The notes: generated from the letters alone by a model not told the origin. Shown: positions 3,331-31,471, counted from the first letter of the stretch. The stretch is DNA of 64,000 nucleotides from an uncultured Pelagibacteraceae bacterium (GCA_902594235.1 CACJLJ010000003.1:70526-134525); one strand, 5' to 3'. A program made the numbers and translations.

Positions 3331-4549
3331 AAAAAAAATTCCTCTAATTGATCAACATGATCGTTATGGTTTTTGGGGTAGTAAATTTGGAGGAAGTTTT
3401 ATTCCTGAAACTCTAAAAAAACCTATAGAGGATCTAACACACGAATTTTCAAAATTAAGAAATAATAAGAATTTTTTAAAAAAAAGAGATTTTTATTTTA
3501 GGAACTATATAGGATCACCTACATCATTCGTGAAATTAGAAAATTTATCTAATCATTTGGGTGGTGCTCAAATATGGGCTAAAGTTGTATCAGAAGCTAA
3601 TGGTGGTGCCCACAAAATTTACAATGCAACTGTTCATGCCTTAATTTGCAAGGCTATGGGGAAAAAATACATAGTTGGAGATACAGGCGCAGGTTATGCT
3701 GGTAAAATGTTAAGTATGGCTGCTAAGAAATTTGGTCTCAAATGTAAAATTTTCATGGGTGTGAAAGATATCAAAAGACAGAAACCAAATTGTGACGCCA
3801 TGAGAGAAAATGGTGCTGAAATAGTTCCTGTATATTCAGGCAGTCAAACCTTAGTCGATGCAGTTAGTGAATGTATGAGATATTGGGTATCAAATTGTGA
3901 CACCACGCACATGTGCGTTGGAAGTACAGTTGGTCCAAATATATTTGTAAAAATTTGTGGATGGAGTACAGCACAAATTTCAAGAGAATTAAAAATACAA
4001 ATTAAACAAAAATTTAAAAAAATTCCAAAAAAAATTAAATTAATTAATTGTGTGGGTGGTGGAAGTTCAGCATATGGTTTTTGGAGTGAATTTATAGATT
4101 TTAACAAATCACAGATAGAATTAATTGGAGTAGAGGCTGGTGGTCCAAAAAGATCCAAACTTCATGCAGCTCCTCTAAGTAGAAATGCTAAAATTGGAAT
4201 TTTACATGGTGCAGCTTCTTATGTTTGTCAAAACAATGAAGGTCAAATTAATGACACTGAATCAATCAGTGCTGGATTGGATTATCCTGGAGTCAGTCCA
4301 ATACATTGTTTTTTAAAAGATACAAAACGAGCTAGATACACTTATGCAACTGATGAAGATGCATTAAAAGCATATATGATGGTAACTAAATTTGAAAAAC
4401 TTAATCCAAGTTTAGAACCTAGTCATGCATTTGCAGAGGCCATAAAAATTGCTCCAAAATTAAGTCAAGACACAATAATAATAGTCAACTCTTGTGGTGA
4501 TGCTAAAAAAGATAGAGATATTTTAAGAGAGAGACTAGGTAAAAATTAA
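3320..4549 (+). CDS. trpB: Tryptophan synthase beta chain (divergent active site)
   Basis: GAHK PLP lysine, VGGGS, SAGLDYPGV; located between trpF and trpA. Confidence 0.93.
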   Translation: MKLKKKIPLIDQHDRYGFWGSKFGGSFIPETLKKPIEDLTHEFSKLRNNKNFLKKRDFYFRNYIGSPTSFVKLENLSNHLGGAQIWAKVVSEANGGAHKIYNATVHALICKAMGKKYIVGDTGAGYAGKMLSMAAKKFGLKCKIFMGVKDIKRQKPNCDAMRENGAEIVPVYSGSQTLVDAVSECMRYWVSNCDTTHMCVGSTVGPNIFVKICGWSTAQISRELKIQIKQKFKKIPKKIKLINCVGGGSSAYGFWSEFIDFNKSQIELIGVEAGGPKRSKLHAAPLSRNAKIGILHGAASYVCQNNEGQINDTESISAGLDYPGVSPIHCFLKDTKRARYTYATDEDALKAYMMVTKFEKLNPSLEPSHAFAEAIKIAPKLSQDTIIIVNSCGDAKKDRDILRERLGKN

Positions 4550-5349
4550 TGAGTTCGTTGATTAACAAAACATTTTCAATTGCAAAGAGTGAAAACAGGC
4601 CAGCACTTCTCACTTACACAGTTGCTGGAGATAACACTAAAAAAAAATCTTTAGAAATATTAAAATCAATTTCTAATTACGCAGATATTTGTGAATTAGG
4701 TTTTCCACATAACACACCAATAGCTGATGGAGGGCAAATACAAACAAGTGCTTACAGGGCAATTAAAAATGGTATTAAAATTAATGATGTATTTTCAATT
4801 GCAAAAAATTTTAAAAAAGTAAAAAGAAATAAACCGATTATTTTAATGGGTTACTATAATATAATTTTTCAATACAACGAAGATAAATTTATTAAAAAAT
4901 GTAAAAAATCTAAAGTTGATGGATTAATTGTTGTAGATTTGCCTTATCCAGAAAACAAAGCTTTTGCTTTAAAATGTAAAAAAAAAAAAATTAATTTTAT
5001 TCAACTTATCTCTCCTACAACCTCTAGAAACAGGTTAAAGCAAATAATTAGAGATTCGCATGATATGATATATTATATCAGTATGTTATCCACTACAGGA
5101 GGAAAACTAAAAGTATCAACAAAAAAGATTCTTAGTGAATATAAAAAAATTAAAAAACTAGATAAATCTAAGTATGTTGTTATTGGATTTGGTATTACAG
5201 GCAAAACTATTAAATCTCTAAAAAAGGCAGATGGATTAGTTGTAGGCAGTGCTATTTGTAAGGAAATTACTAATTCAATTAAAAAAAGACAAAATGCTGT
5301 CATAAATGTCACTAATGTAGTAAAAAAATTAAAAAATAAAATAAAATGA
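4549..5349 (+). CDS. trpA: Tryptophan synthase alpha chain
   Basis: ELGFP, PIADG, GFGI, VVGSA motifs. Confidence 0.95.
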   Translation: MSSLINKTFSIAKSENRPALLTYTVAGDNTKKKSLEILKSISNYADICELGFPHNTPIADGGQIQTSAYRAIKNGIKINDVFSIAKNFKKVKRNKPIILMGYYNIIFQYNEDKFIKKCKKSKVDGLIVVDLPYPENKAFALKCKKKKINFIQLISPTTSRNRLKQIIRDSHDMIYYISMLSTTGGKLKVSTKKILSEYKKIKKLDKSKYVVIGFGITGKTIKSLKKADGLVVGSAICKEITNSIKKRQNAVINVTNVVKKLKNKIK

Positions 5350-6275
5350 ATTGGATCACCAAAATAATAAAAGCTGGTGAAAAAATAAAATCAGCTATCC
5401 ACAAAAGAGCTACAAAGGAAGATATTGCAAATAGTGATTGGACTTCATGTTGTAAAGGACCAATTTTAAAAAAAGATTTAGAAGATAATCTTTGGGTTTG
5501 TCCTGATTGTAATAAACACCACCGTATAAAACCAAAACAAAGGTTTGATATTTTATTTGGTAAAAACAATTACAAAATTTTTAAAACACCTATTCCACAA
5601 GATGATCCGTTGAATTGGACTGATTCAAAATCTTATAAGGATAGATTGAAAAGTGCTAGAAAAAAAACAGGAATGGATTGTGGAATGATGGTTGTTTCTG
5701 GTTCAATAAATAATATCGAAATCACAGCAGTTGCTTCTGATTTCGATTTTTTAGGTGCTTCGATGGCAGCGGCAGAGGGAGAGGCGTTCTTATATGGTAT
5801 ACAATATGCTATTGAAAACAAAACTCCTTTTTTATGTATAAGTGCTGGTGGAGGTATGAGAATGATGGAAAGCTTAATTTCTTTATCACAAATGACAAGA
5901 ACAACGTTAGCAATCAATGAGCTAAAGAAAAACAATCTTCCCTATTTAGTTTGTATAACAGATCCAACTGCAGGAGGTATAACAGCCTCTTACGCAATGC
6001 TTGGCGACATTCATATAGCTGAACCAGGTGCTCTTATAGCTTTTGCAGGCTCGAGGGTTATTCAAGGAACTGTTAAAGAGGAACTTCCTGAAGGATTTCA
6101 AAAAAGTGAATATGTTGAAAAAACTGGTTTTGTAGATTTAATTGTAGAGCGAAAAAACCTCACACTTAAAATTGGAACTTTATTATCCATATTGTTAAAT
6201 AAAAATCCTGCTATAAATACTGAAGAAAATGAAACTTCAGAAAATAGTCAAAAGATTACAAAAGCTGCATCCTAA
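5346..6275 (+). CDS. accD: Acetyl-CoA carboxylase carboxyltransferase beta subunit
   Basis: N-terminal Cys cluster; GGGMRMMES; DPTAGGITASYAMLGD; EPGALIAFAG. Confidence 0.95.
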   Translation: MNWITKIIKAGEKIKSAIHKRATKEDIANSDWTSCCKGPILKKDLEDNLWVCPDCNKHHRIKPKQRFDILFGKNNYKIFKTPIPQDDPLNWTDSKSYKDRLKSARKKTGMDCGMMVVSGSINNIEITAVASDFDFLGASMAAAEGEAFLYGIQYAIENKTPFLCISAGGGMRMMESLISLSQMTRTTLAINELKKNNLPYLVCITDPTAGGITASYAMLGDIHIAEPGALIAFAGSRVIQGTVKEELPEGFQKSEYVEKTGFVDLIVERKNLTLKIGTLLSILLNKNPAINTEENETSENSQKITKAAS

Positions 6276-7494
6276 AGAAATAGATCTTAGCTTAGATCGT
6301 GTTAAAATTCTCTGTGATAAATTAGGCAATCCCCAAAATAAGATAAAAGCTATTTCTGTGGTAGGAACTAATGGAAAACAATCTACGATAAATGCATCAT
6401 ATTCAATTTTAAAAGAAGCAAACATCAAATGTAATGTTTATACTAGTCCACATATTCAAAGAATAAATGAAAGATTTGTTTTTAATAATACGGAATTAAA
6501 AGATGACGAACTAGTAAGTCTTTTTGAAGAAGTGGAAAAAATCAATAACAATCAATCTATTACTTTTTTTGAAATGTTAACTGCATGTTTTTTTTATAAA
6601 GCTGCTCAATATCCACAAAATATTAATTTAATTGAGTCAGGGTTATTTCATCGTTTTGATGCAACTAATATACTAGAGAATAATTTAGCTAGCATTGTAA
6701 CATCTATAAGTAAAGATCATTTAGATTGGCTTCCAAAAAATGATAGAACACTAAAAAAAATTGTTTTCGAAAAAACTTCATCACTTTTGAAATCGATAAT
6801 TATAGTATCTAAACAGAATTCAAAAAAAACGGTTGAGACTATAAGAGAAACAATTAAAGATAATCAATCAAAGAAATTATTTTTCAATGAGGATTTTTCT
6901 TATTCAAATTTAGAAAATAATTTTTTTTATTACGAGGATAAATTTGGTGGTCTGAAACTTCCATCGCCTAATATATTAGGTCAATATCAATTAGAAAATA
7001 TTTCAACAGCAATTGCAACATTGCGGGTGCTAGGTATAAAGATAAGTGACAAACATATTAAAACTGGTATCACTAAAATAAACTGCGTTGCACGACTTCA
7101 AGAAATAAAATCTGGAAAACTAAAAAAATTAGTTAAAAATAATAGATTATTAGTAGACGGGAGTCACAATGAGGATGGATCTAGAGTCTTAAATGAGTAT
7201 CTTGGATCATTAGATTGTAAAAAACATGTTATAATAGGAATGATGTCTAATAAAGATCACGAAAAATATATAAGTTATTTTAAAAATATTTCATCCTTAA
7301 CTACAGTCGATATTCCCAATCAACCAAATGCAATAAGTGGAAAACAACTGAAAGAAAAATTTAAAAATATCCCTAATGTTCAGTACAAAAAAAGTATTGA
7401 ACAAGCAATCAAGTCTATACCCTTACAAAAAAATGATTTATTGATTATCACTGGGTCACTTTATTTAAGCGGCGAATTCTTAAATTTAAATTAA
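6229..7494 (+). CDS. folC: Folylpolyglutamate/dihydrofolate synthase
   Basis: VVGTNGK P-loop, YTSPH, TFFE, ESGL, DGSHN, TGSLYL. Confidence 0.95.
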   Translation: MKLQKIVKRLQKLHPKEIDLSLDRVKILCDKLGNPQNKIKAISVVGTNGKQSTINASYSILKEANIKCNVYTSPHIQRINERFVFNNTELKDDELVSLFEEVEKINNNQSITFFEMLTACFFYKAAQYPQNINLIESGLFHRFDATNILENNLASIVTSISKDHLDWLPKNDRTLKKIVFEKTSSLLKSIIIVSKQNSKKTVETIRETIKDNQSKKLFFNEDFSYSNLENNFFYYEDKFGGLKLPSPNILGQYQLENISTAIATLRVLGIKISDKHIKTGITKINCVARLQEIKSGKLKKLVKNNRLLVDGSHNEDGSRVLNEYLGSLDCKKHVIIGMMSNKDHEKYISYFKNISSLTTVDIPNQPNAISGKQLKEKFKNIPNVQYKKSIEQAIKSIPLQKNDLLIITGSLYLSGEFLNLN

Positions 7495-7808
7495 ATATTC
7501 TTTTCTAAGAATTCTTTCATATTGCTCTCTGGAACTCCACCAACTTTTCTATCTACCTCAATACCCTTTTTATAAATTATTACTGTTGGTACCCCTCTAA
7601 TGCCTGCAGAACTACCTGTATTAATTCCACCATCTTCAATATCTGCATAATAAAAACCAGCTTTACCTTTAAACTCTTCTGCCAATTTATCCATAATCGG
7701 CTTTAAAGCCTTGCAAGGGCCACACCATGCTGCACTAAATTGAATCACAGAGACATCCTCATTTTTGATTTTATTATCAAAATCTTCATCTTTAAAATCT
7801 ATAAGCAT
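7491..7808 (-). CDS. trxA: Thioredoxin
   Basis: WCGPC active site; IRGVPT; convergent with folC as in other alphaproteobacteria. Confidence 0.95.
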   Translation of the reverse strand: MLIDFKDEDFDNKIKNEDVSVIQFSAAWCGPCKALKPIMDKLAEEFKGKAGFYYADIEDGGINTGSSAGIRGVPTVIIYKKGIEVDRKVGGVPESNMKEFLEKNI

Positions 7809-7842
7809 TCAATCTATCTATAATTATTATTGTTAATGTCAA

Positions 7843-9279
7843 CTATGCTAATTCATATTTCTTTTCAATTGACATTATAAATTTATTAATTTCGTCCAAT
7901 TTTCTCAACTCCTCCTCGTCATCTCTATTTGAAGCTTGATCTCTTAAATAATCAATTTCTGTATAAGCCATTCCGATAGTTTGCCATTTTTCTTTATTTT
8001 TACTTAATATTCTTCTAGCAATTTCACTCTTGATATTCTTGTATAGATCAGGTGGTAAGATTTGTGGAGCCTCTTGATAAATAATCTTTTGACCAAACCA
8101 ACTACATCTTTTATCTTGAAACTTATCTAACAATCTTAATTTATCTTCCCATGATGAACTATGCCATGTTTTAAATAATGCAGTATCTTTATTAGGAATA
8201 AATTTTTCATACAAAGTTTCCTCTGGTAATAAATCTTCTTGTGTTTTAGTTTGTTCCTTTTCTTCTGCTGCTTCTCTATTTATAGTTTGTATATTTTTAC
8301 AAAATTTCTCACTATTTCTTACAAGGGATGCTCTTTTCTTAATTATTTCTAAATCTAAATCAGAATATGGTTTTTGTTTTAACGCAAACTCTTTATTCAA
8401 AACTATTGGAGCTTTATTTGTTTTTAAAACTCTTAACGCTTTGGGGCTAAATTTTTTTAATGTGTCTCTTAATTGATTAACCGATAGATCTAATAAAGGT
8501 TCTGGATCTCTTCTCAAATCCCAAAGATATCCCCAAGATGCATAAGAGGGGTGAAAACATTGATTTGGATGCAATGTGCTAACTAAATACATCATATTTC
8601 TTCCCTTCACATTTTCAAAAATTGAATATACTCCATCACTTTTTAAAATTGTCTCTACACTTGCTTTTGTTGATGTCTTTAAAAATGTTTGCCAGTTTTC
8701 TTTATGTTTGTCTCTTATAATCCTAAGAACTTTTAATGAATTTTGAGCATCTACGTAAGCTGTATGGCTTGCTGAGGTATCAAAACCCTGCATTCTAGAT
8801 AAAGACTCTAATGCAAGACTTGGGTTTCCAGCTTCAGTTAATTCTGTTTTTAAAGTTTCAGGATCTAATGTTTGAGCAGCTCTTGCTATATGAAGACCAT
8901 CATGTTCTTGGTTAGGTGATGAATGAGTAGCATAAGGATAACGATTACCTTTAAAAAAATTAAAATGGAACATTCTTCGATCAAAATTTAAGTTCGACCA
9001 ACCCATAAACATTGCTGGAGCACATTTTGAAAAAAAATTTTCAACAGCACCTAAAAAATCGTAATGTGAATAATTACCCTTCGTTAATAAATCTATGCTT
9101 GTTGAATTTACTAATAACGCTTTAGCTGAAGGAACTTCCCCCTCAGGCATACGCCCCCTAATATTTAACTTTCCAATTTCTTTTAAATTCTTATCAACAA
9201 CAACTGCTCCAACCTCAATTATAGATCCCCAAATAGTGCTATTAGTTGTCTCAGTATCGTAAATTACAATTTTATCCAT
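7843..9279 (-). CDS. sbcB: Exodeoxyribonuclease I (3'-5' ssDNA exonuclease)
   Basis: DEDDh motifs YDTET, NLNFD and SHTAYVDA; NKAPIVL; 478 aa matches ExoI length. Confidence 0.85.
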   Translation of the reverse strand: MDKIVIYDTETTNSTIWGSIIEVGAVVVDKNLKEIGKLNIRGRMPEGEVPSAKALLVNSTSIDLLTKGNYSHYDFLGAVENFFSKCAPAMFMGWSNLNFDRRMFHFNFFKGNRYPYATHSSPNQEHDGLHIARAAQTLDPETLKTELTEAGNPSLALESLSRMQGFDTSASHTAYVDAQNSLKVLRIIRDKHKENWQTFLKTSTKASVETILKSDGVYSIFENVKGRNMMYLVSTLHPNQCFHPSYASWGYLWDLRRDPEPLLDLSVNQLRDTLKKFSPKALRVLKTNKAPIVLNKEFALKQKPYSDLDLEIIKKRASLVRNSEKFCKNIQTINREAAEEKEQTKTQEDLLPEETLYEKFIPNKDTALFKTWHSSSWEDKLRLLDKFQDKRCSWFGQKIIYQEAPQILPPDLYKNIKSEIARRILSKNKEKWQTIGMAYTEIDYLRDQASNRDDEEELRKLDEINKFIMSIEKKYELA

Positions 9280-9284
9280 TTTAA

Positions 9285-9971
9285 TTAACCTAAGTTACTC
9301 ATTTCATTAAATTTTTTTAATCTACCTAAAAACAAATTTTGATAAGTTATTAATTCTGGGCCTTGAATTTTAAATTCTTGGAATAAATTATCTACTGTAC
9401 AAACAAGAATAATACAAGCTCTGATATTTGAATTGTAAACAACATTATGCGCCAAAGAATAGGCTGCTGTTTGTAAAAACCAAGAATCTATGTATTCTGC
9501 TTTTTTCGGTTTATTTGATTGTTTGAAATCAATTATAGTTTCTTTCCCTTCATACACCCCAACACAATCTGCTGTGCCCGCATATCTATCAGGATAATAC
9601 ATTGTGCATTCCACACCGTATATCTCGTCTAATCTGTTTGTTAATCCTTTATCTATAATTTCTTTTGCCATCTTTTTATATTGTTCATTATCTTCAAAAA
9701 AACTTAAATTTTCTCTACCCAAAAGAAAAGACTCTAAATAGCTATGCATCTGAGAACCTCTACTGCTTGCAGCTTTTGTAATCGCTTCTGCCTCCTTTTG
9801 ACCAGTTCTTTCTCGCCAATTTGCCAAAGCTGCTTTATCCTCTTCAGATTTTGTTGCATCAAGAATTGACGTAACACTTGGTAATTTTGTTTCACCTAAT
9901 ATGTATCTTCTTATCCCATCTTCTGTTGCTCTTGATGATGTGGGATAACTGTATTTCTTATTCCAACGCAT
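9285..9971 (-). CDS. Stand-alone RecB-type PD-(D/E)XK exonuclease (MGME1/phage-exonuclease-like)
   Basis: LPSVTSIL; W..R; G..MH..LE; YAGTADC...IIDFKQS; QTAAY (RecB-family QxxxY motif). Confidence 0.8.
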   Translation of the reverse strand: MRWNKKYSYPTSSRATEDGIRRYILGETKLPSVTSILDATKSEEDKAALANWRERTGQKEAEAITKAASSRGSQMHSYLESFLLGRENLSFFEDNEQYKKMAKEIIDKGLTNRLDEIYGVECTMYYPDRYAGTADCVGVYEGKETIIDFKQSNKPKKAEYIDSWFLQTAAYSLAHNVVYNSNIRACIILVCTVDNLFQEFKIQGPELITYQNLFLGRLKKFNEMSNLG

Positions 9972-10008
9972 GAGATTTCTTATAATCGGTATTATCTAAA
10001 AAAAGAAA

Positions 10009-11100
10009 TTATTTTTTGATTTGTTTATTTCTTTCAACAAAACTCTCAACGTTCTCTGTCAGAACAGCTTTTTCAACTTGCTCGGGATCTTTTATATTTT
10101 CCAAAGTTCTTGTAATTGATCTTGCATCTTTTCCAAAACTATCAACAACCGTCATAGCCTCTTCAAGTTTTTTTCTTAATTTATAAATATTATCAAAATG
10201 ACTGGAAAATCTTGTGCTTATTGCTTTTAGATGATCATAAATCTCCGTAGCATTTTTAGATATTTTGATACTCTGAAAGCCCATATGTAAAGACTGCAAA
10301 TAAGCTGAAAGAGTGTTTGGGCCACAAATAACTATTTTATATTTTTTCATTAATTCTTGGGTTAATAACTCTTTGGTACTTGGATCTTGATACTCAGTTA
10401 ATTCTTTATAAAGACTTTCTGTAGGAGCATACACTATTGCAAAATTTGAAGTTTTAGGTGGAACAATATATTTTTCCATCACACTTTTTGCTTTAGCTTT
10501 AAATGCACTTGCTAATTTTGTTCTAGCGTCTGCCACTGCCTTTTTGTCATCTGCATCAAAAGCATCGGTAATTGCTTTAAATTTTTCTACTGGAAAATGA
10601 GAGTCTACAGGAACTAATACATCCCCTTGAAGCTTAATTGCAAATTCTACATTCTCACTAGTATCTTCTTTCATTTTAACATTGGTCATAAATTGAGATG
10701 CTGGTAACAAATCCTTGATTAAAGCGTCCAAAGAATATTCAGCCAATGTTCCATATTTTTTAACTCCTGCTAAAATTTTAGTAATCCCTTCTTGGCTTTG
10801 ATTTAATAATTTTACCTGTTCGTTAAAATTCCCGACCTTCTCATCTACTTTGGTTAAGGCCTCAGTCATATCTTTTGTAACCCCAGTTGATAAAGAATTG
10901 AATGATGTCGACATAGAACTTAATGATGTATTGATTGTAGAATTAAGGCTGTCTTTTAATCTAACAATTTCAGCATTCAAATTTGCTACTTCATCAATGT
11001 TTTTATCTGCTTCTTTAGTTTTAGACTTAATATTTAAATATAAAATAGCCAATGTCGCTACAAACATTAGAATTAAGATTATTAATAAAATTGTGTCCAT
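10009..11100 (-). CDS. rmuC: DNA recombination protein RmuC family, with N-terminal membrane anchor and coiled coil
   Basis: Hydrophobic N-terminus, coiled coil, then VPVDSHFP, FAIVYAPTESLY and ICGPNTLSAYL RmuC-like blocks. Confidence 0.85.
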   Translation of the reverse strand: MDTILLIILILMFVATLAILYLNIKSKTKEADKNIDEVANLNAEIVRLKDSLNSTINTSLSSMSTSFNSLSTGVTKDMTEALTKVDEKVGNFNEQVKLLNQSQEGITKILAGVKKYGTLAEYSLDALIKDLLPASQFMTNVKMKEDTSENVEFAIKLQGDVLVPVDSHFPVEKFKAITDAFDADDKKAVADARTKLASAFKAKAKSVMEKYIVPPKTSNFAIVYAPTESLYKELTEYQDPSTKELLTQELMKKYKIVICGPNTLSAYLQSLHMGFQSIKISKNATEIYDHLKAISTRFSSHFDNIYKLRKKLEEAMTVVDSFGKDARSITRTLENIKDPEQVEKAVLTENVESFVERNKQIKK

Positions 11101-11130
11101 GATTCGTAACTTGTATTATAAGGGATTTTA

Positions 11131-11262
11131 ATGGAATATTATCTTATTTTAAAATTAATATTTACAATAGTTGTTATAATTGCTGCATACGCAATTATTA
11201 GAAATTTGGATATTATAAAAATTATTATCATTTATTTTAAAGATAAATTAATTAGAAAGTAA
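11131..11262 (+). CDS. Putative 43-aa small membrane protein (not in ORF track)
   Basis: ATG at 11131 preceded by AAGGGA; translates to MEYYLILKLIFTIVVIIAAYAIIRNLDIIKIIIIYFKDKLIRK; fills the rmuC-hisG gap. Confidence 0.5.
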   Translation: MEYYLILKLIFTIVVIIAAYAIIRNLDIIKIIIIYFKDKLIRK

Positions 11263-11934
11263 TCCAATCAAGTTTTTCAATCCCCTTTTCTTACTATTCT
11301 TCTTTGAAGTAAAAATGCAAGCCTGAGACTTTAAAATTTGTCCATCTTTCAAAATACGTAAATTGTTTGCCTTAAGGGTTTCACCTGTAGAACTAATATC
11401 TGTAATCAATTCAGCTGAACCAGTGAAAGGATATACTTCAGTTGCACCCAAACTATCAATTAATTTGAATTGAGTGACACCTTTTGAAAACAAAAATTCT
11501 CTTGTTAAATTTGGATACTTGGTTGCAACCCTTAATCTTTTTTTCTTTTTATCTTTAAATTCAAATGCAATTTCTTCTAGATCAGCTATTGTTTGAACAT
11601 CAATCCAAGGATCCGGTATAGCTACAACTAGATTAGCTTTTCCAAAATTAAGTTTTTTTATAACATTTATTTTGTTTTGAGTATTTATTTCACTTTCTTT
11701 TAATAGATCAAAACCAGAGAAGCCAACATCTAAAGAGCCATCTCCTAATCTCTCAATAATTTCTCTTGCGTGCAAATATAAAATTTTTATGTTTGATTTA
11801 TTTTTTATTGAGCCTATCAAATCTCTTTCCCCTCGCTCAGAAATAAGCTTTAATCTTTTTTTAGTAAAAATTTTTAAAATATCTTTTCTTAATCGTCCCT
11901 TACTAGGTATTCCTATATTTATTAAATTTTTCAT
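11248..11934 (-). CDS. hisG: ATP phosphoribosyltransferase, short form
   Basis: GIPSKGRL, RVATKYP, GATE, ELITDISSTGETL; lacks the C-terminal regulatory domain and is adjacent to hisZ. Confidence 0.95.
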   Translation of the reverse strand: MKNLINIGIPSKGRLRKDILKIFTKKRLKLISERGERDLIGSIKNKSNIKILYLHAREIIERLGDGSLDVGFSGFDLLKESEINTQNKINVIKKLNFGKANLVVAIPDPWIDVQTIADLEEIAFEFKDKKKKRLRVATKYPNLTREFLFSKGVTQFKLIDSLGATEVYPFTGSAELITDISSTGETLKANNLRILKDGQILKSQACIFTSKKNSKKRGLKNLIGLLSN

Positions 11935-27492: not shown

Positions 27493-28222
27493 TTTTAAAT
27501 AAAAACAAGCCATCAGATGGCGCAGGTGGTGCACATAAGATCCTTTTTTTTGATTTCATAACTTTTTCAAACTTATTTAATGACCACTTTTTTTCTCCTA
27601 CATACTTTAGACAACCAACCATTGAGCGAACTTGTTGTTGTAAAAAAGACTGAGATCTAAATTCAATTATTATTTTATCTTTTATAGATTTCAATTTGAC
27701 CAAATTCATAGTTTTGATTGGGCTTTTCGCTCTACAACTTGAAGCTCTGAATGTTGAAAAATCTTTTGTACCAATTAATTTTTTTGCAGCTTTTTTCATT
27801 ATTTCTACATCAAGTTTTTTAATAATATGCCAACCTCTATTTTTTTTCAAAACTGGTTCTGCTAGCCTATTAATTATTATATATTTATATATTCTCATTT
27901 TTGCTGAGTACCTTGCGTGAAAACCTTTTTTTCTTTTTTTAATTTTTAAAATTGATACTTCGTCCTTATTTAAAAAATGATTTATAGATTTTAAAAATTT
28001 ATCAAAATTCATAATTTTGTATTTGCAGTCAAAATGAGCAGATTGCTCAACTGCATGTACTCCTGCATCAGTTCTTCCAGAACCTGACAAAATTATTTTT
28101 TCCTTTAAGAGCCTTGAAATCTTATCTTGAATAAGGCCCTGAACAGTTTTTCCTTTTTTTTGAACCTGCCATCCTTTAAAATTAGTGCCAGAATACTCAA
28201 TAAGTATTTGATATCTAAACAT
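27482..28222 (-). CDS. truA: tRNA pseudouridine(38-40) synthase
   Basis: GWQVQ, GRTDAGVHA, FHARY, DFSTFR, FLQQQVR. Confidence 0.96.
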   Translation of the reverse strand: MFRYQILIEYSGTNFKGWQVQKKGKTVQGLIQDKISRLLKEKIILSGSGRTDAGVHAVEQSAHFDCKYKIMNFDKFLKSINHFLNKDEVSILKIKKRKKGFHARYSAKMRIYKYIIINRLAEPVLKKNRGWHIIKKLDVEIMKKAAKKLIGTKDFSTFRASSCRAKSPIKTMNLVKLKSIKDKIIIEFRSQSFLQQQVRSMVGCLKYVGEKKWSLNKFEKVMKSKKRILCAPPAPSDGLFLFKIIY

Positions 28223-29147
28223 TGGATATTATTGAGCCTCTTTTAATTCGAGATCCAAGTTTAAATTCTCCAATTTTTTGAGGTCTTTTTCCTTGTCTCT
28301 GAATTTCAAGAATTTTAATAAATTGATTTTTATTACAGGCAATTTCAAGATTATCAGATATTACTTCTCCAGCCTTACCATTTCCATTTCCAATTTCTGC
28401 TTTTAAAATTTTATATCTTTCTCCCTTAAAATTAAAAAAGGCTCCTGGAGATGGAAATAAGCCATTTATTTTTCCTAAAATTTTAGGTGCATCCTCATTC
28501 CAATTAATTTGACCCTCAGATTTTTCAATCTTTTTTGCATAAGTCGCTTTTGTATTATCTTGTTCAACAAATTTTACCTTATCATCAATTATTTCATCAA
28601 TATTATCTAAAATTTTTTCAGCTGCTAACATCGAAAGCTGATCAGTTATTTCCTGAGCATTTTTATTATAGTCTATCTTAATTTTATAAATATTGCTTAT
28701 AGGCCCACTATCTAATTTCTCAACAATTTTCATTATACTTATGCCTGTTTCTTCATCTAAGTTCATAATTGATCTCTGTATAGGTGCTGCACCTCTCCAT
28801 TTAGGAAGTATCGAGCCATGTATATTAATAAAACCTTTTTTTGTTAAGTTTAAATATTCCTTTGGTATGATTTGTCCATAAGCAACAACAATTGCAAGAT
28901 CAGCATTTAAGTTTTTAATAAAATCATATTCATCTTGATTATTTTTAAGCGTATCAGGTAACCTTAAATCTAAGTTTAATGTTTCCGAAATTCCTTGAAC
29001 CGGCGACTTATTAATCTTTTGACCACGATGAGACTTTTGTGGAGGTTGAGTATATACTGCAGATATAGTGTAGCCATTTTGATATAAAGATTTCAAAATT
29101 GGGACAGCAAACATAGGTGTGCCCATGAAAATAATTTTTTTTGACAT
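28215..29147 (-). CDS. fmt: Methionyl-tRNA formyltransferase
   Basis: FMGTP, VVAYG, NIHGSILPKWRGAAP, LDSGP. Confidence 0.97.
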   Translation of the reverse strand: MSKKIIFMGTPMFAVPILKSLYQNGYTISAVYTQPPQKSHRGQKINKSPVQGISETLNLDLRLPDTLKNNQDEYDFIKNLNADLAIVVAYGQIIPKEYLNLTKKGFINIHGSILPKWRGAAPIQRSIMNLDEETGISIMKIVEKLDSGPISNIYKIKIDYNKNAQEITDQLSMLAAEKILDNIDEIIDDKVKFVEQDNTKATYAKKIEKSEGQINWNEDAPKILGKINGLFPSPGAFFNFKGERYKILKAEIGNGNGKAGEVISDNLEIACNKNQFIKILEIQRQGKRPQKIGEFKLGSRIKRGSIISNV

Positions 29148-29150
29148 TTA

Positions 29151-29666
29151 TTAAACTACTATCCGAGTAGATTTAGCCTTAGATAGTTTCTTAATAATCA
29201 TAGATTTTTTTAATTTAGATAAATAGTCAATAAATAGTATACCTTCTAAATGATCCATCTCGTGTTGAATACAAGTAGCTAGTAAACCTTGTGCTTTTAA
29301 AATTTTTTTATTTCCATAATAATCTAAATATTCCACTTCACATTCTTTTGGTCTCGCTACTTCAGCAAATTGGTTTGGAACAGATAAACATCCTTCCTCA
29401 TAAGTAGATTTTTTTATGTCTCTATTCTTTATAATTGGATTCACAAAATATCTTGGTTCTTTTTTTTCATTCTTACTTAAATCCATCACAATGATTCTTT
29501 TTGGTATACCTATTTGAATTGCAGCTAAACCAATGCCATTTGCTGAATACATTGTATCCAACATATCATCCATTAATTTTTTTTCCTCAGCACCAACACT
29601 CTCTACAGGCTTGGAGATCTGTCTCAGTAATGGATTGGGCTCAGTTAAAATAGTTTTTACAGTCAT
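29151..29666 (-). CDS. def: Peptide deformylase
   Basis: GIGLAA, EGCLS, QHEMDH. Confidence 0.97.
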   Translation of the reverse strand: MTVKTILTEPNPLLRQISKPVESVGAEEKKLMDDMLDTMYSANGIGLAAIQIGIPKRIIVMDLSKNEKKEPRYFVNPIIKNRDIKKSTYEEGCLSVPNQFAEVARPKECEVEYLDYYGNKKILKAQGLLATCIQHEMDHLEGILFIDYLSKLKKSMIIKKLSKAKSTRIVV

Positions 29667-29698
29667 AACTCCATTAATACATTATTTTATTCTAATTT

Positions 29699-31471
29699 TT
29701 AAACTTTTAAAGGAAGAACTTTTAACAAAATTTTATTTCGTAACAAGTCGATATCTAATTGATTTAAGGTACTTATTATAAAGTAAATTGTATCTTCATC
29801 TATTCTATCTAGTCGATCTTGACCTATTACTTCTGCAATTCTCAATAAAGCAATACCCTTTTCATTATTATTAATCATAACCTGAATATCAGTGGGAATT
29901 TCAGATGGATCTATTTGATATAAATCATCATATTTTTTTGAAATTTCTATTTCATCAAATTTTAAAGACTCTAAAAAGATCTGGTCTTTTTTTGAAAAAA
30001 AATACTTCTTATTTTTTTTTATTTTTTTTAAAAAGTTCTCAACTTCTTTTTCAATCTTTGACTTTGAATAATTTCCATTAAAATAATCTATAAGTTTTGA
30101 TTGATGTAATACATCATTATTAAACTTTATATTTTCTTTATTTTGTTCTGTAATTTTTATATTCGTGTAATAAAAGCTTGTTAAATTATCAGGAACATCT
30201 ACTGGATTTATTTTTTCCAAATATTCTTTTAAATGAACATCAAACGCTTCACCAATATTATCTTTTAAAAATAAATTTTTTAATAATTTAAGTAATTTTA
30301 ATTTTTCATTCATTTCCGACTCTAAAAGTATCTTTTGATATATTAATGCTCTTGCCTCAATATTAGATAAAGTTTTATAATATTTTTCAGCATCTAAAAG
30401 TTGATTAATATTAAATTGAAATCGCTTGTAAATTTCAAATAATTCTTTTTCAGAATAATTTTTGTTATGAGTTGCTTTTTCTAAAGTTGAAATCTTGTCT
30501 AATTCTGAAATTTCTATCTTTTGAAAAGAAGAGAGCAAATTTGAAGAAGCAAGATACTTCCAAATTATTTTACTTGTATTTTCATTAGGTTCAAAATTAA
30601 AATCTTGGATTGTTTGATGTGCTAGATGAAAATTTAGTATATTTTTATCTGATATACTTTTGTCTTCTAGAGTATTAAATCCAAGTAAAAAATTAATCTT
30701 TTTTTCAAAATATTCATCTTTAAAACCTAATTCTTTTTTTAAATCAAAAATAAGTTGTGCTTGTTCTTTTCTGTCATTTATAATTAAACAATAAATCTTG
30801 AATTTTGAAAGATAATTATCTTCGATCACATCATCAAATTTGAAGAGTATTTGACAAGACCTCTCAACTTTAGCCTCGGACAAATATTGATCGACAAGAT
30901 ATTTTGTTAATTTAGGGTGAAGATTTATAATTTGATTCTTAATCAAATATTCTTCAATTAAATCTAAATCAGAATTCTTTATTAACCACTCTGACTTAAG
31001 CTTTAGAAAATCTTTTTCTGAGATATTTTTTTTTGGTAAGTACGCATTAGTCATTAAAGAAATTTTTACTATTTCATTTGCATCTTCAGAAAGTTTCATA
31101 TTATTCAATTTTTTTAAAATGATTTTTAATTGATCACCATCAGAATTTGACCACATATCAATATTAAGACTATTATCCTCAGGATCATATAGTCCCAATA
31201 TCTTAATTTCTTCATAATCTAAATTTTCATCTAACTTAATAGAGGTTTTTTTTTTTTGTGATTGCATTTTAAAAATATCTGAAACATTGTTGGTATCATT
31301 GATTGTGATGTTTTCATTATCATTTAGAGAATCTGTAGTAGTATTTTCAATTTTTTTTTTATCAATATCCCAAATATCGATTGGCTCTTCCTCAGCAAGT
31401 AATTTAAATTGAAATAAAAAAATAAATAAAATAAAAAAAACTCTTTTATTTAATAATTTTGAAATTTTCAT
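29699..31471 (-). CDS. Exported/membrane-anchored helical hypothetical protein (590 aa)
   Basis: N-terminal signal/TM segment, GLYD..WS.S block, no enzyme motifs seen; overlaps the upstream small membrane ORF. Confidence 0.75.
   Translation of the reverse strand: MKISKLLNKRVFFILFIFLFQFKLLAEEEPIDIWDIDKKKIENTTTDSLNDNENITINDTNNVSDIFKMQSQKKKTSIKLDENLDYEEIKILGLYDPEDNSLNIDMWSNSDGDQLKIILKKLNNMKLSEDANEIVKISLMTNAYLPKKNISEKDFLKLKSEWLIKNSDLDLIEEYLIKNQIINLHPKLTKYLVDQYLSEAKVERSCQILFKFDDVIEDNYLSKFKIYCLIINDRKEQAQLIFDLKKELGFKDEYFEKKINFLLGFNTLEDKSISDKNILNFHLAHQTIQDFNFEPNENTSKIIWKYLASSNLLSSFQKIEISELDKISTLEKATHNKNYSEKELFEIYKRFQFNINQLLDAEKYYKTLSNIEARALIYQKILLESEMNEKLKLLKLLKNLFLKDNIGEAFDVHLKEYLEKINPVDVPDNLTSFYYTNIKITEQNKENIKFNNDVLHQSKLIDYFNGNYSKSKIEKEVENFLKKIKKNKKYFFSKKDQIFLESLKFDEIEISKKYDDLYQIDPSEIPTDIQVMINNNEKGIALLRIAEVIGQDRLDRIDEDTIYFIISTLNQLDIDLLRNKILLKVLPLKV

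What the first reader, a model, noticed from the sequence alone, without database searches (positions are those of the whole stretch)
7843..11100. Helicase-free three-nuclease cassette (RmuC, RecB-type exonuclease, ExoI) in the addBA slot upstream of trxA
Seen: four co-oriented genes rmuC > PD-(D/E)XK nuclease > sbcB > trxA with spacers of 37, 5 and 34 nt, converging on folC-accD-trpABF. Established from recalled synteny: many alphaproteobacteria (e.g. Rhizobiales, Caulobacterales) have addB-addA immediately upstream of this trxA, and rmuC usually lies near def/fmt. Inference: AddAB was replaced in place by a minimal end-processing module. It would combine a membrane-anchored coiled-coil RmuC, a stand-alone RecB/MGME1-type exonuclease and a 3'-5' ssDNA exonuclease. 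Possible roles are DSB resection, processing of incoming DNA, or nucleotide salvage in a highly recombining oligotroph.
Basis: partly seen in the sequence, partly recalled or inferred. Interest (0 to 1): 0.72.

Follow-up and report, generated by a model that had tools for sequence, protein, structure and literature searches.

The report
SAR11 nuclease genes replace AddAB
In this SAR11 ocean bacterium, three DNA-cutting enzyme genes sit exactly where related bacteria keep their main DNA-break repair machine (AddAB), which SAR11 lacks; the swap of position is real, but whether the three enzymes do AddAB's job is unproven.

Summary
On the minus strand lie rmuC (10009-11100), a 228-aa MGME1-like PD-(D/E)XK nuclease (9285-9971), an ExoI/SbcB-family gene (7843-9279) and trxA (7491-7808), with spacers of 37, 5 and 34 nt, converging on folC-accD-trpA.

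The recalled synteny holds. In 27 of 30 alphaproteobacterial families trxA directly follows addA, and nine checked families show tsaE-(APH)-(NTP-transferase)-addB-addA-trxA<-folC. addA was found in 0 of 121 Pelagibacterales genomes against 94 of 100 other families. This genome also shows no addB, recJ or recQ, and only one UvrD-type helicase.

The sbcB-like gene occupies this slot across the order. In a second marine lineage (LRMED-289 type) both flanks are intact: tsaE-APH-NTP-sbcB-trxA.

The three genes are not one fixed cassette:
- sbcB is order-wide.
- An rmuC always lies beside sbcB, but belongs to two separate clades, in seven arrangements.
- The MGME1-like gene is confined to one genus and resembles pelagiphage genes.

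Function as an AddAB substitute is inferred only. ExoI degrades 3' tails, the cassette has no helicase, and complex prediction gave no verdict. Degradative trimming of DNA ends is my preferred reading.

The scan noted this trio before in another SAR11 genome (e1-4175577). The slot evidence is new here.

The parts
10009..11100 (-). rmuC: RmuC-family protein, 363 aa, with an N-terminal hydrophobic anchor (residues about 3-23), a coiled-coil-like stretch and a C-terminal RmuC nuclease-fold domain
   Evidence: Pfam PF02646, E 7.7e-50, residues 55-341. Translation. Invariant G117, E121, D166, S167, E228 and P261 across 23 Pelagibacterales RmuCs. Clade I, type A, in the RmuC tree.
9285..9971 (-). 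MGME1-like RecB-type PD-(D/E)XK exonuclease, 228 aa
   Evidence: phmmer to human MGME1 (8xa9, 5zyu, 5zyt) E 5.5e-12 over residues 25-223. AF2 model pLDDT 93.4, and the top nine PDB fold matches are all MGME1, TM 0.69-0.86. phrog_298 'exonuclease' 1.8e-48. Invariant D135, D148, K150, Q167 and Y171 in 21 homologues. Pelagiphage HTVC023P/027P homologues at 43% identity.
7843..9279 (-). sbcB-like exodeoxyribonuclease I family gene, 478 aa (DEDDh exonuclease domain plus ExoI C-terminal domain)
   Evidence: NF008746 ExoI full-length, E 1e-31, but 110 bits against a cut-off of 260. Exonuc_X-T_C 6.7e-15. DEDDh residues D8, E10, D100, H172 and D177 invariant in 31 sequences. Present in 112 of 121 Pelagibacterales genomes.
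7491..7808 (-). trxA, thioredoxin: the conserved right-hand anchor of the ancestral addB-addA slot
   Evidence: Pfam Thioredoxin 1.5e-21. trxA lies directly downstream of addA in 27 of 30 alphaproteobacterial families.
4549..7494 (+). trpA (4549-5349), accD (5346-6275) and folC (6229-7494), converging on trxA: the conserved outer flank of the slot
   Evidence: TIGR00262 trpA, TIGR00515 accD and TIGR01499 folC. The same convergent flank is seen in addA-bearing alphas, in Pelagibacterales relatives and in the LRMED-289 lineage.
11101..11247 (-). 147-nt AT-rich spacer between hisG and rmuC: the only sizeable gap, so a possible promoter region for the cassette
   Evidence: Sequence. Promoter-like TTTAAA-18-TATAAT at 11241-11212. 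Such sites are no more frequent than in shuffles (33 found, 38 expected), so this is weak. No terminator-like site inside 7491-11100.
11248..11934 (-). hisG: the left neighbour in this genus (hisS-hisZ-hisG), replacing the ancestral tsaE-APH-NTP-transferase left flank
   Evidence: TIGR00070 hisG 1.3e-53. tsaE of this genome lies on another contig, C1:78127-78492.

Best explanation
Shown: an ExoI-family gene (sbcB-like) occupies the chromosomal position that addB-addA hold in most Alphaproteobacteria. This holds throughout the order Pelagibacterales, which has no AddAB. This genome also shows no RecJ, no RecQ, and only one UvrD-type helicase (so no RecB). In Pelagibacterales a single-copy rmuC always travels with sbcB. 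In one genus (the window's own, presumably Pelagibacter) an MGME1-like nuclease of phage affinity was added directly upstream of sbcB.

Inferred: the genes form a loosely coupled set of DNA-end nucleases, not a fixed machine. ExoI would trim 3' single-strand ends. The MGME1-like enzyme would trim 5' ends and flaps. The membrane-anchored RmuC nuclease would supply endonucleolytic entry. Together they would provide the degradative, clean-up half of what AddAB does: removal of linear or frayed DNA, and possibly nucleotide recycling and limiting aberrant recombination. They would not provide the helicase, Chi or RecA-loading half. Any unwinding would come from elsewhere, for example from the single UvrD.
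For: Position:
- trxA lies right after addA in 27 of 30 families.
- tsaE-(APH)-(NTP)-[3.1-kb addB gap]-addA-trxA<-folC in 9 families.
- sbcB-(0 to 4.2 kb)-trxA<-folC<-accD<-trpA in both Pelagibacterales families.
- An exact tsaE-APH-NTP-sbcB-trxA<-folC in six genomes of the LRMED-289 lineage, and tsaE-ExoI-like-trxA in G174.

Absence of the usual machinery:
- addA in 0 of 121 Pelagibacterales genomes against 94 of 100 other families.
- In this genome: no addA, addB, PDDEXK_1, recJ or recQ, and one 680-aa UvrD.
- The literature already states that SAR11 lacks RecBCD, RecF and MutSL (PMC12374537).

Association: sbcB-like genes occur in 3 of 6 addA-lacking families but only 3 of 94 addA-bearing ones. 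Fisher p = 0.0023, not corrected for phylogeny.

Linkage: RmuC is found in 113 of 121 genomes and SbcB in 112 of 121. They are adjacent wherever both lie on one contig, except in G093, despite seven different arrangements.

Catalytic competence: DEDDh residues are invariant in SbcB, D-DxK-QxxxY in the nuclease, and the nuclease has the MGME1 fold.

Expression: seawater metatranscriptome contigs lie on all three genes.

Context: RmuC-domain proteins degrade DNA in vitro (Shield, PMC10270631), and rmuC is an SOS gene in Vibrio cholerae (PMC5963079).
Against: - There is no functional or physical evidence. Complex prediction gave no verdict.
- No contig bridges a gene junction by 31 nt on both sides, and RNA libraries can hold DNA.
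- sbcB fills the slot alone in the LRMED-289 lineage. HIMB59 has sbcB elsewhere, and its rmuC is far away. The trio is therefore not an obligatory unit.
- The sbcB tree does not resolve whether the slot was filled once or several times.
- sbcB is a pseudogene in G089.
- The slot is a site of gene turnover, so co-location could partly reflect a permissive insertion site.
Confidence: 0.55

Rival explanations
1. One reading: the trio is a minimal functional substitute for AddAB that resects double-strand breaks to start RecA-dependent repair. UvrD would unwind, the MGME1-like enzyme would remove the 5' strand, and ExoI/RmuC would tidy the ends.
For: Every canonical resection system searched for is missing: addA, addB, recJ, recQ, and RecB judged by the single UvrD-helicase hit. 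The genes sit in the addBA slot. Solved MGME1 structures show it bound to single-strand DNA and to 5'- and 3'-overhang substrates (entry titles). Some relatives (G029, G039) carry a Cas4/PD-(D/E)XK + RNase_H_2 + SF1-helicase protein in the same cluster.
Against: ExoI degrades the 3' tails needed by RecA; in E. coli it must be inactivated (the sbcB mutation) for recBC-independent repair (established knowledge). The 5'-end nuclease was not found in four of five genera of the family and in nearly all of the second family, although these also lack AddAB. There is no helicase in the cassette and nothing resembling Chi recognition. Complex prediction gave no verdict.
Confidence: 0.15
2. An anti-phage or foreign-DNA barrier. 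A Shield-like membrane-anchored RmuC nuclease would attack incoming DNA at the membrane, and two exonucleases would finish it. This would replace the anti-phage exonuclease role of AddAB/RecBCD.
For: RmuC-domain ShdA confers phage defence, degrades DNA in vitro and lowers transformation (PMC10270631). RmuC types are exchanged between lineages. SbcB and the nuclease diverge faster than RmuC in the ten most distant genomes of the genus (51% and 61% against 78% identity) and faster than hisG, folC or accD in the two genomes compared. The nuclease's nearest relatives are in pelagiphages and other phages. Variable neighbours include a Mokosh MkoA-like helicase-nuclease. Earlier scan note e1-4175577 reads the site as the edge of a variable defence region.
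Against: rmuC is a single-copy, near-universal gene in Alphaproteobacteria (95 of 101 families), so it looks like housekeeping. sbcB and rmuC are near-universal in the order. No PADLOC system model fits: there is only a weak RTasRmuC hit, and the RTasSbcB hit is generic to all ExoI. This genome's cassette is flanked by his, trxA and folC core genes with no other defence gene.
Confidence: 0.2
3. Neighbours without shared function. After addBA was deleted, the site upstream of trxA became a permissive landing place, and unrelated nuclease genes accumulated there by chance and by genome compaction.
For: Other, unrelated genes are inserted at the same site in relatives: an MsrP/MsrQ-like pair, DUF2130 and LRR-like proteins. 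sbcB stands alone in the LRMED-289 lineage. No complex was predicted.
Against: rmuC-sbcB adjacency survives seven rearrangements and a change of RmuC clade across two families. This is hard to explain without selection for linkage. All the persistent members act on DNA ends.
Confidence: 0.1

Closest known systems
E. coli exodeoxyribonuclease I (SbcB; NCBIfam NF008746, Pfam RNase_T + Exonuc_X-T_C)
   Same: Full-length collinear match with the same two-part architecture. The DEDDh catalytic residues are invariant.
   Different: The score is 110 bits against an equivalog cut-off of 260. In the tree it falls in a divergent alphaproteobacterial group, separated from the gammaproteobacterial clade by a fully supported branch of length 1.77. 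It sits in the addBA slot in genomes without AddAB or RecBCD, whereas E. coli ExoI coexists with RecBCD.
Human MGME1 (mitochondrial genome maintenance exonuclease 1; PDB 5ZYT, 5ZYU, 5ZYV, 8XA9)
   Same: Sequence match E 5.5e-12 over almost the whole protein. Same fold (TM 0.69-0.86). The D...DxK and QxxxY motifs are conserved.
   Different: About 23-27% identity. It is bacterial and chromosomal, with closest relatives in pelagiphages, cyanophages and jumbo phages (phrog_298). Activity and polarity are untested.
RmuC (E. coli YigN) and the RmuC-domain defence protein ShdA of the Pseudomonas Shield system
   Same: N-terminal membrane anchor, coiled-coil region and C-terminal RmuC domain. ShdA homologues degrade DNA in vitro (PMC10270631).
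   Different: It is a single-copy core gene here, as in 95 of 101 alphaproteobacterial families. No Shield partner genes are present. Linkage to an ExoI gene is, in the samples searched, specific to Pelagibacterales.
AddAB helicase-nuclease (alphaproteobacterial addA TIGR02784, addB TIGR02786)
   Same: The same chromosomal slot between (tsaE-APH-NTP) and trxA<-folC. The MGME1-like protein shares the RecB-type nuclease fold of the AddA/AddB nuclease domains, but only distantly (TM about 0.4).
   Different: No SF1 helicase domain, no Chi-scanning subunit, about 3.3 kb instead of about 6.5 kb, and three separate small proteins. Any functional equivalence is untested.

Membership tests
Exodeoxyribonuclease I (SbcB) | DEDDh 3'-5' exonuclease motifs (Exo I DxE, Exo II D, Exo III Hx4D) | tested here: met
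   D8, E10, D100, H172 and D177 are invariant in 31 aligned homologues.
Exodeoxyribonuclease I (SbcB) | ExoI-specific C-terminal region (Pfam Exonuc_X-T_C) | tested here: met
   PF08411, E 6.7e-15, residues 243-467.
Exodeoxyribonuclease I (SbcB) | Score above the NCBIfam equivalog cut-off (orthology with E. coli ExoI) | tested here: not met
   110.1 bits against a cut-off of 260. It lies outside the gammaproteobacterial clade, which is set apart by a fully supported long branch. It is therefore filed as an ExoI-family member, not an equivalog.
Exodeoxyribonuclease I (SbcB) | Processive 3'-5' ssDNA exonuclease activity and binding of the SSB C-terminal tail | not testable with these tools
   Needs biochemistry.
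MGME1 / RecB-type PD-(D/E)XK exonuclease | D...(D/E)xK catalytic core plus the QxxxY motif | tested here: met
   D135, D148, K150, Q167 and Y171 are invariant and align with the matching MGME1 motifs.
MGME1 / RecB-type PD-(D/E)XK exonuclease | Whole-protein sequence and fold similarity to MGME1 in particular | tested here: met
   phmmer E 5.5e-12. The nine best PDB fold matches are all MGME1; the next (DinG, RecE, Cas4) are at E 1e-5 or worse.
MGME1 / RecB-type PD-(D/E)XK exonuclease | Pfam PDDEXK_1 gathering score | tested here: not met
   18.7 bits against a cut-off of 22. The generic Pfam model is insensitive here.
MGME1 / RecB-type PD-(D/E)XK exonuclease | ssDNA-specific exonuclease activity needing a free end | not testable with these tools
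   Needs biochemistry.
RmuC (PF02646) | RmuC domain above the Pfam cut-off | tested here: met
   170.1 bits against a cut-off of 26.
RmuC (PF02646) | N-terminal transmembrane anchor and coiled coil | tested here: inconclusive
   A hydrophobic stretch at residues 3-23 is visible in the translation. Only weak coiled-coil-type hits were found (Baculo_PEP_C, ZorA). No dedicated TM or coiled-coil predictor was run.
AddAB/RecBCD-type helicase-nuclease (as functional analogue) | SF1 UvrD-like helicase motor within the system | tested here: not met
   No helicase domain in any of the three proteins. The only PF00580 gene in the genome is a 680-aa UvrD on contig 1.
AddAB/RecBCD-type helicase-nuclease (as functional analogue) | Chi recognition and production of a RecA-loadable 3' tail | not testable with these tools
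   Needs biochemistry or genetics. The known polarity of ExoI argues against it.
Shield (ShdA) anti-phage system | Match to a defence-system model, or partner genes ShdB-E, in a defence island | tested here: not met
   PADLOC gives only RTasRmuC at 3.9e-5 for this RmuC. The neighbours here are his, trxA and folC core genes. The PADLOC 2.0.0 library may predate Shield.
DRT (defence reverse transcriptase) accessory SbcB/RmuC | An associated reverse transcriptase | tested here: not met
   No RVT_1 match in the genome. The RTasSbcB model scores ordinary gammaproteobacterial ExoI as highly as this protein.

The most novel reading that the evidence does not exclude
In several streamlined marine alphaproteobacterial lineages the AddAB helicase-nuclease was displaced in situ by an ExoI-family exonuclease. 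In SAR11 this enzyme, with RmuC and (in one genus) a phage-derived MGME1-like 5' exonuclease, would form a helicase-less DNA-end-processing system. That system would shape the clade's unusually promiscuous recombination and its handling of phage and foreign DNA.
Probability: 0.15. Interest if true: 0.8.

Novelty: new variant of a known kind. Interest (0 to 1): 0.55.

Why it matters
SAR11 is the most abundant bacterial clade in the ocean and recombines at very high rates. The literature notes that it lacks RecBCD, RecF and MutSL (PMC12374537), and here AddAB, RecJ and RecQ were also not found. How it processes DNA ends is therefore an open question.

The addBA slot is filled by an ExoI-family gene, the very gene whose loss rescues recBC mutants in E. 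coli. An rmuC is held beside it through many rearrangements. This gives three concrete candidate genes to test in heterologous hosts.

The exact two-flank replacement in a second marine lineage is also a rare genomic change. It could help place SAR11-like lineages in the alphaproteobacterial tree.

If the genes turn out to be mere neighbours, the result is still a clean example of positional gene displacement during genome streamlining.

Tried and rejected
1. Complex prediction of RmuC (residues 75-363), the nuclease and SbcB, using my own alignments. It gave no verdict (score 0.00, mark 0.32). This is evidence neither for nor against binding.

2. DRT defence lead. PADLOC RTasSbcB hit SbcB at 3.8e-56. 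However, the same model scores ordinary gammaproteobacterial ExoI at 150-215 bits. The true high scorers are four large-genome alphas with no RmuC beside them. This genome has no reverse transcriptase. The lead was dropped.

3. Phage origin of sbcB. phrog_19080 matches at 1e-34, but tblastn against 50,697 phage records found nothing.

4. Single versus multiple origin of slot-sbcB. The tree's backbone is an unresolved polytomy among the Pelagibacterales subgroups, the LRMED-289 group, HIMB59 and other alphas, and G174 sits on a very long branch.

5. Co-transcription. Metatranscriptome contigs lie on all three genes, but none bridges a junction by 31 nt or more on both sides, and DNA carry-over cannot be excluded.

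6. Promoter and terminator scan. It was uninformative in this AT-rich DNA: 33 promoter-like sites against 38 expected.

7. The 1122-aa nuclease-helicase of G029 was not found in this genome.

8. Literature searches found no paper linking SAR11 with sbcB or rmuC. Only part of the literature is searchable.
Full report
**Observation**

The window (G000 contig 3, 70526-134525) comes from a genome of 1.19 Mb, about 29% GC and 96.6% estimated completeness. It is of SAR11 type: its gene sequences recur in seawater metatranscriptomes, and relatives' records are labelled Pelagibacteraceae.

The spacers are 37, 5 and 34 nt. The genes converge on folC, accD and trpA on the plus strand.

Family scans name three of the genes directly:
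- RmuC: Pfam E 7.7e-50.
- An ExoI-family protein: Exonuc_X-T_C 6.7e-15, plus a full-length match to the ExoI equivalog model at 110 bits, below its 260-bit cut-off.
- Thioredoxin.

The middle protein fails Pfam's cut-off (PDDEXK_1 E 0.0017). Other evidence identifies it:
- It matches phrog_298 'exonuclease' at 1.8e-48.
- It matches human MGME1 chains at 5.5e-12 over nearly its whole length.
- Its AlphaFold2 model has pLDDT 93.4, and the nine best PDB matches are all MGME1, TM 0.69-0.86.
- The D135...D148-x-K150 and Q167xxxY171 motifs are invariant in 21 homologues.

In the ExoI-like protein the DEDDh residues (D8, E10, D100, H172, D177) are invariant in 31 homologues.

**The slot**

I tested the recalled synteny instead of trusting it.
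- An addA model found the gene in 94 of 100 alphaproteobacterial families outside Pelagibacterales, and in 0 of 121 Pelagibacterales genomes.
- In 27 of the 30 best addA loci, each from a different family, trxA lies immediately downstream on the same strand. folC converges wherever the 1.5-kb flank reaches it.
- Larger regions from nine families show tsaE-(APH kinase)-(NTP-transferase)-[about 3.1 kb, addB]-addA-trxA<-folC.

In Pelagibacterales the right flank is kept. sbcB is followed by trxA<-folC<-accD<-trpA within 0.03-4.2 kb in 11 of 13 regions inspected, covering eight of the nine genera sampled, in both families.

The clearest case is outside the order. In six genomes of a marine lineage typified by MAG LRMED-289 (handle G128), both flanks are intact and the sbcB-like gene alone stands between them: tsaE-APH-NTP-sbcB-trxA<-folC<-accD<-trpA. 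A third addA-lacking lineage (G174) has tsaE, then a DEDDh ExoI-like gene, then trxA<-folC.

Among the 100 families:
- sbcB-like genes occur in 3 of the 6 without addA and in 3 of the 94 with it. Fisher p = 0.0023, not corrected for relatedness.
- Where addA and an sbcB-like gene coexist (G126), they lie about 3 Mb apart.

Canonical ExoI above the model cut-off was found only outside the class: 38 of 201 Pseudomonadota. These class-level tallies include one unpublished genome (G160). No specific claim rests on it, and removing it changes the counts by one.

**What else is missing**

In this genome I found the following:
- no addA and no addB;
- no PDDEXK_1-class protein;
- no recJ;
- no recQ above noise;
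- a single UvrD-helicase gene (680 aa), hence no RecB.

That SAR11 lacks RecBCD, RecF and MutSL is already in the literature (PMC12374537). The absence itself is therefore not new.

**The three genes are not one block**

*sbcB* is order-wide: 112 of 121 genomes, and 73 of 74 high-quality ones.

*rmuC* is also order-wide: 113 of 121, one copy each. It lies beside sbcB in every genome where both are on one contig, except G093, where they are 4.4 kb apart. I found seven arrangements:
- rmuC>nuclease>sbcB>trxA (most of the genus, including this window);
- nuclease>sbcB>rmuC>trxA (G005, G009);
- nuclease>rmuC>sbcB (G101);
- nuclease>sbcB>orf130>rmuC>1122-aa nuclease-helicase (G029, G039);
- inverted rmuC, then nuclease>sbcB (G033);
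- rmuC>sbcB>trxA (the four other genera of the family);
- sbcB>rmuC>trxA (the second family).

An RmuC tree with 29 outgroup families splits the Pelagibacterales proteins into two well-supported clades, separated by other alphaproteobacterial RmuCs. The split does not follow genus boundaries. RmuC has therefore been exchanged, yet an RmuC is always kept next to sbcB.

Elsewhere in the class rmuC is a near-universal single-copy gene: 95 of 101 families. It lies far from sbcB in the LRMED-289 lineage and in HIMB59. This window's own def-fmt is at 28215-29666.

*The MGME1-like gene* is present in 49 of 50 genomes of the window's genus, always directly upstream of sbcB. It was found in 0 of 10 genomes of the other genera of the family and in 2 of 60 of the second family. 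Its best matches outside SAR11 are pelagiphages HTVC023P and HTVC027P (43% identity), then cyanophages and jumbo phages.

Within the genus, SbcB and the nuclease diverge faster than RmuC. In the ten most distant genomes the identities are 51% and 61%, against 78%. In the two genomes where the neighbours were also compared (G005, G033), hisG, folC and accD stand at 67-86% against 43-52% for SbcB.

**How it probably works**

Shown: position, linkage, absence of the canonical machinery and intact catalytic motifs.

Inferred: function. I favour a loosely coupled set of DNA-end nucleases that supplies the degradative side of AddAB's work.
- ExoI would act on 3' single-strand ends.
- The MGME1-like enzyme would act on 5' ends and flaps.
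- RmuC, a membrane-anchored nuclease, could make the entry cuts. RmuC-domain ShdA degrades DNA in vitro (PMC10270631), and rmuC is SOS-induced in Vibrio cholerae (PMC5963079).

I give the strong AddAB-substitute reading low odds, for three reasons:
- ExoI removes the 3' tails RecA needs. In E. coli it is the loss of sbcB that rescues recBC mutants (established knowledge).
- The cassette has no helicase.
- Most Pelagibacterales lineages lack the 5' nuclease yet also lack AddAB.

A defence reading stays open. In its favour are RmuC exchange, fast-evolving SbcB and nuclease, phage relatives, and variable neighbours that include a Mokosh MkoA-like helicase-nuclease. Against it, sbcB and rmuC are near-universal in the order (rmuC across the whole class), and no defence-system model fits.

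**Tests that gave nothing**

- Complex prediction returned no verdict.
- Metatranscriptome contigs lie on all three genes, but none bridges a junction convincingly.
- The promoter scan is uninformative in AT-rich DNA.
- The sbcB tree cannot say whether the slot was filled once or several times.
- The PADLOC RTasSbcB hit is generic to ExoI, and the genome has no reverse transcriptase.

**Relation to earlier scan notes**

The same trio was noted in another SAR11 genome (e1-4175577). Its follow-up called the nuclease pair the fixed unit and RmuC an exchangeable neighbour.
- My RmuC tree agrees that RmuC is exchangeable.
- At the level of the order, however, the persistent pair is sbcB plus some RmuC. 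The MGME1-like gene is the genus-level add-on.

Note e1-5210740 describes what appears to be the G029-type arrangement. The addBA-slot evidence and the two-flank replacement in a second lineage are, as far as I could find, new.

**Verdict**

This is a real, conserved and moderately surprising case of positional displacement of AddAB by an ExoI-family gene, with a persistent RmuC partner. All the proteins belong to known families. Functional replacement remains a hypothesis.

Noticed in passing
L085:9844-13212 (G029; also G039): A 1122-aa protein with an N-terminal Cas4/PD-(D/E)XK domain, an RNase_H_2 domain and a C-terminal SF1 helicase (AAA_11/AAA_12; PADLOC MkoA 3.7e-41). It lies directly after rmuC in the same cluster. 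So the cluster is not helicase-free in all relatives. It was not found in this genome.
   Followed up: partly
L096-L104, L146 (LRMED-289 lineage; G128): Six genomes of an uncultured marine alphaproteobacterial lineage carry tsaE-APH-NTP-sbcB-trxA<-folC<-accD<-trpA, an exact replacement of addB-addA by sbcB. Shared slot content with Pelagibacterales and G174 might serve as a rare-genomic-change marker for their disputed relationships. The sbcB tree does not resolve this.
   Followed up: partly
whole genome G000: No recJ and no recQ above noise, in addition to no addAB or RecB. The genome is 96.6% complete, so absence is likely but not proven.
   Followed up: partly
G089:C1:75924-77340: The sbcB-like gene of this complete genome of the window's genus has several internal stop codons (a pseudogene), while rmuC and the nuclease look intact.
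   Followed up: no
G093:C1:573204-579773 (L088): An outlier in the same genus: no MGME1-like gene, an sbcB-like gene only 27% identical, and rmuC 4.4 kb away on the other strand.
   Followed up: no
L078:8766-10331 (G023): An MsrP/MsrQ-like pair (molybdopterin oxidoreductase plus ferric-reductase-like membrane protein) is inserted between sbcB and trxA. In G101 four genes (138 aa; 694 aa LRR-like; DUF2130; 153 aa) are inserted there. The site is a hotspot of gene turnover.
   Followed up: partly
L077:5532-6582, L078:5250-6331, L084:9765-10812, L085:4944-5991: A conserved pair of ORFs of about 181 and 170 aa lies upstream of the nuclease cluster in several lineages. The G001 pair, the only one scanned, has no Pfam match. 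This may relate to earlier scan note e1-5210740 about a repressor at this locus.
   Followed up: no
window 28215-31471: def (29151-29666) and fmt (28215-29147) lie 18 kb from rmuC. In 6 of 30 other alphaproteobacterial families rmuC sits directly upstream of def-fmt. Here that position holds an unidentified 590-aa ORF (29699-31471).
   Followed up: no
G098 (C25, C66) and L157: Probable mis-binned contigs. G098, assigned to the second family, carries sbcB, rmuC and nuclease pieces 91-93% identical to this genome's. A 'Burkholderiaceae' MAG contig (L157) carries an sbcB piece 91% identical to HIMB59's.
   Followed up: no
L089:6772-7569 (G034:C17): One of only two MGME1-like hits in the second Pelagibacterales family (43% identity). 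It sits on a 20.6-kb contig among many short ORFs, possibly phage-derived.
   Followed up: no
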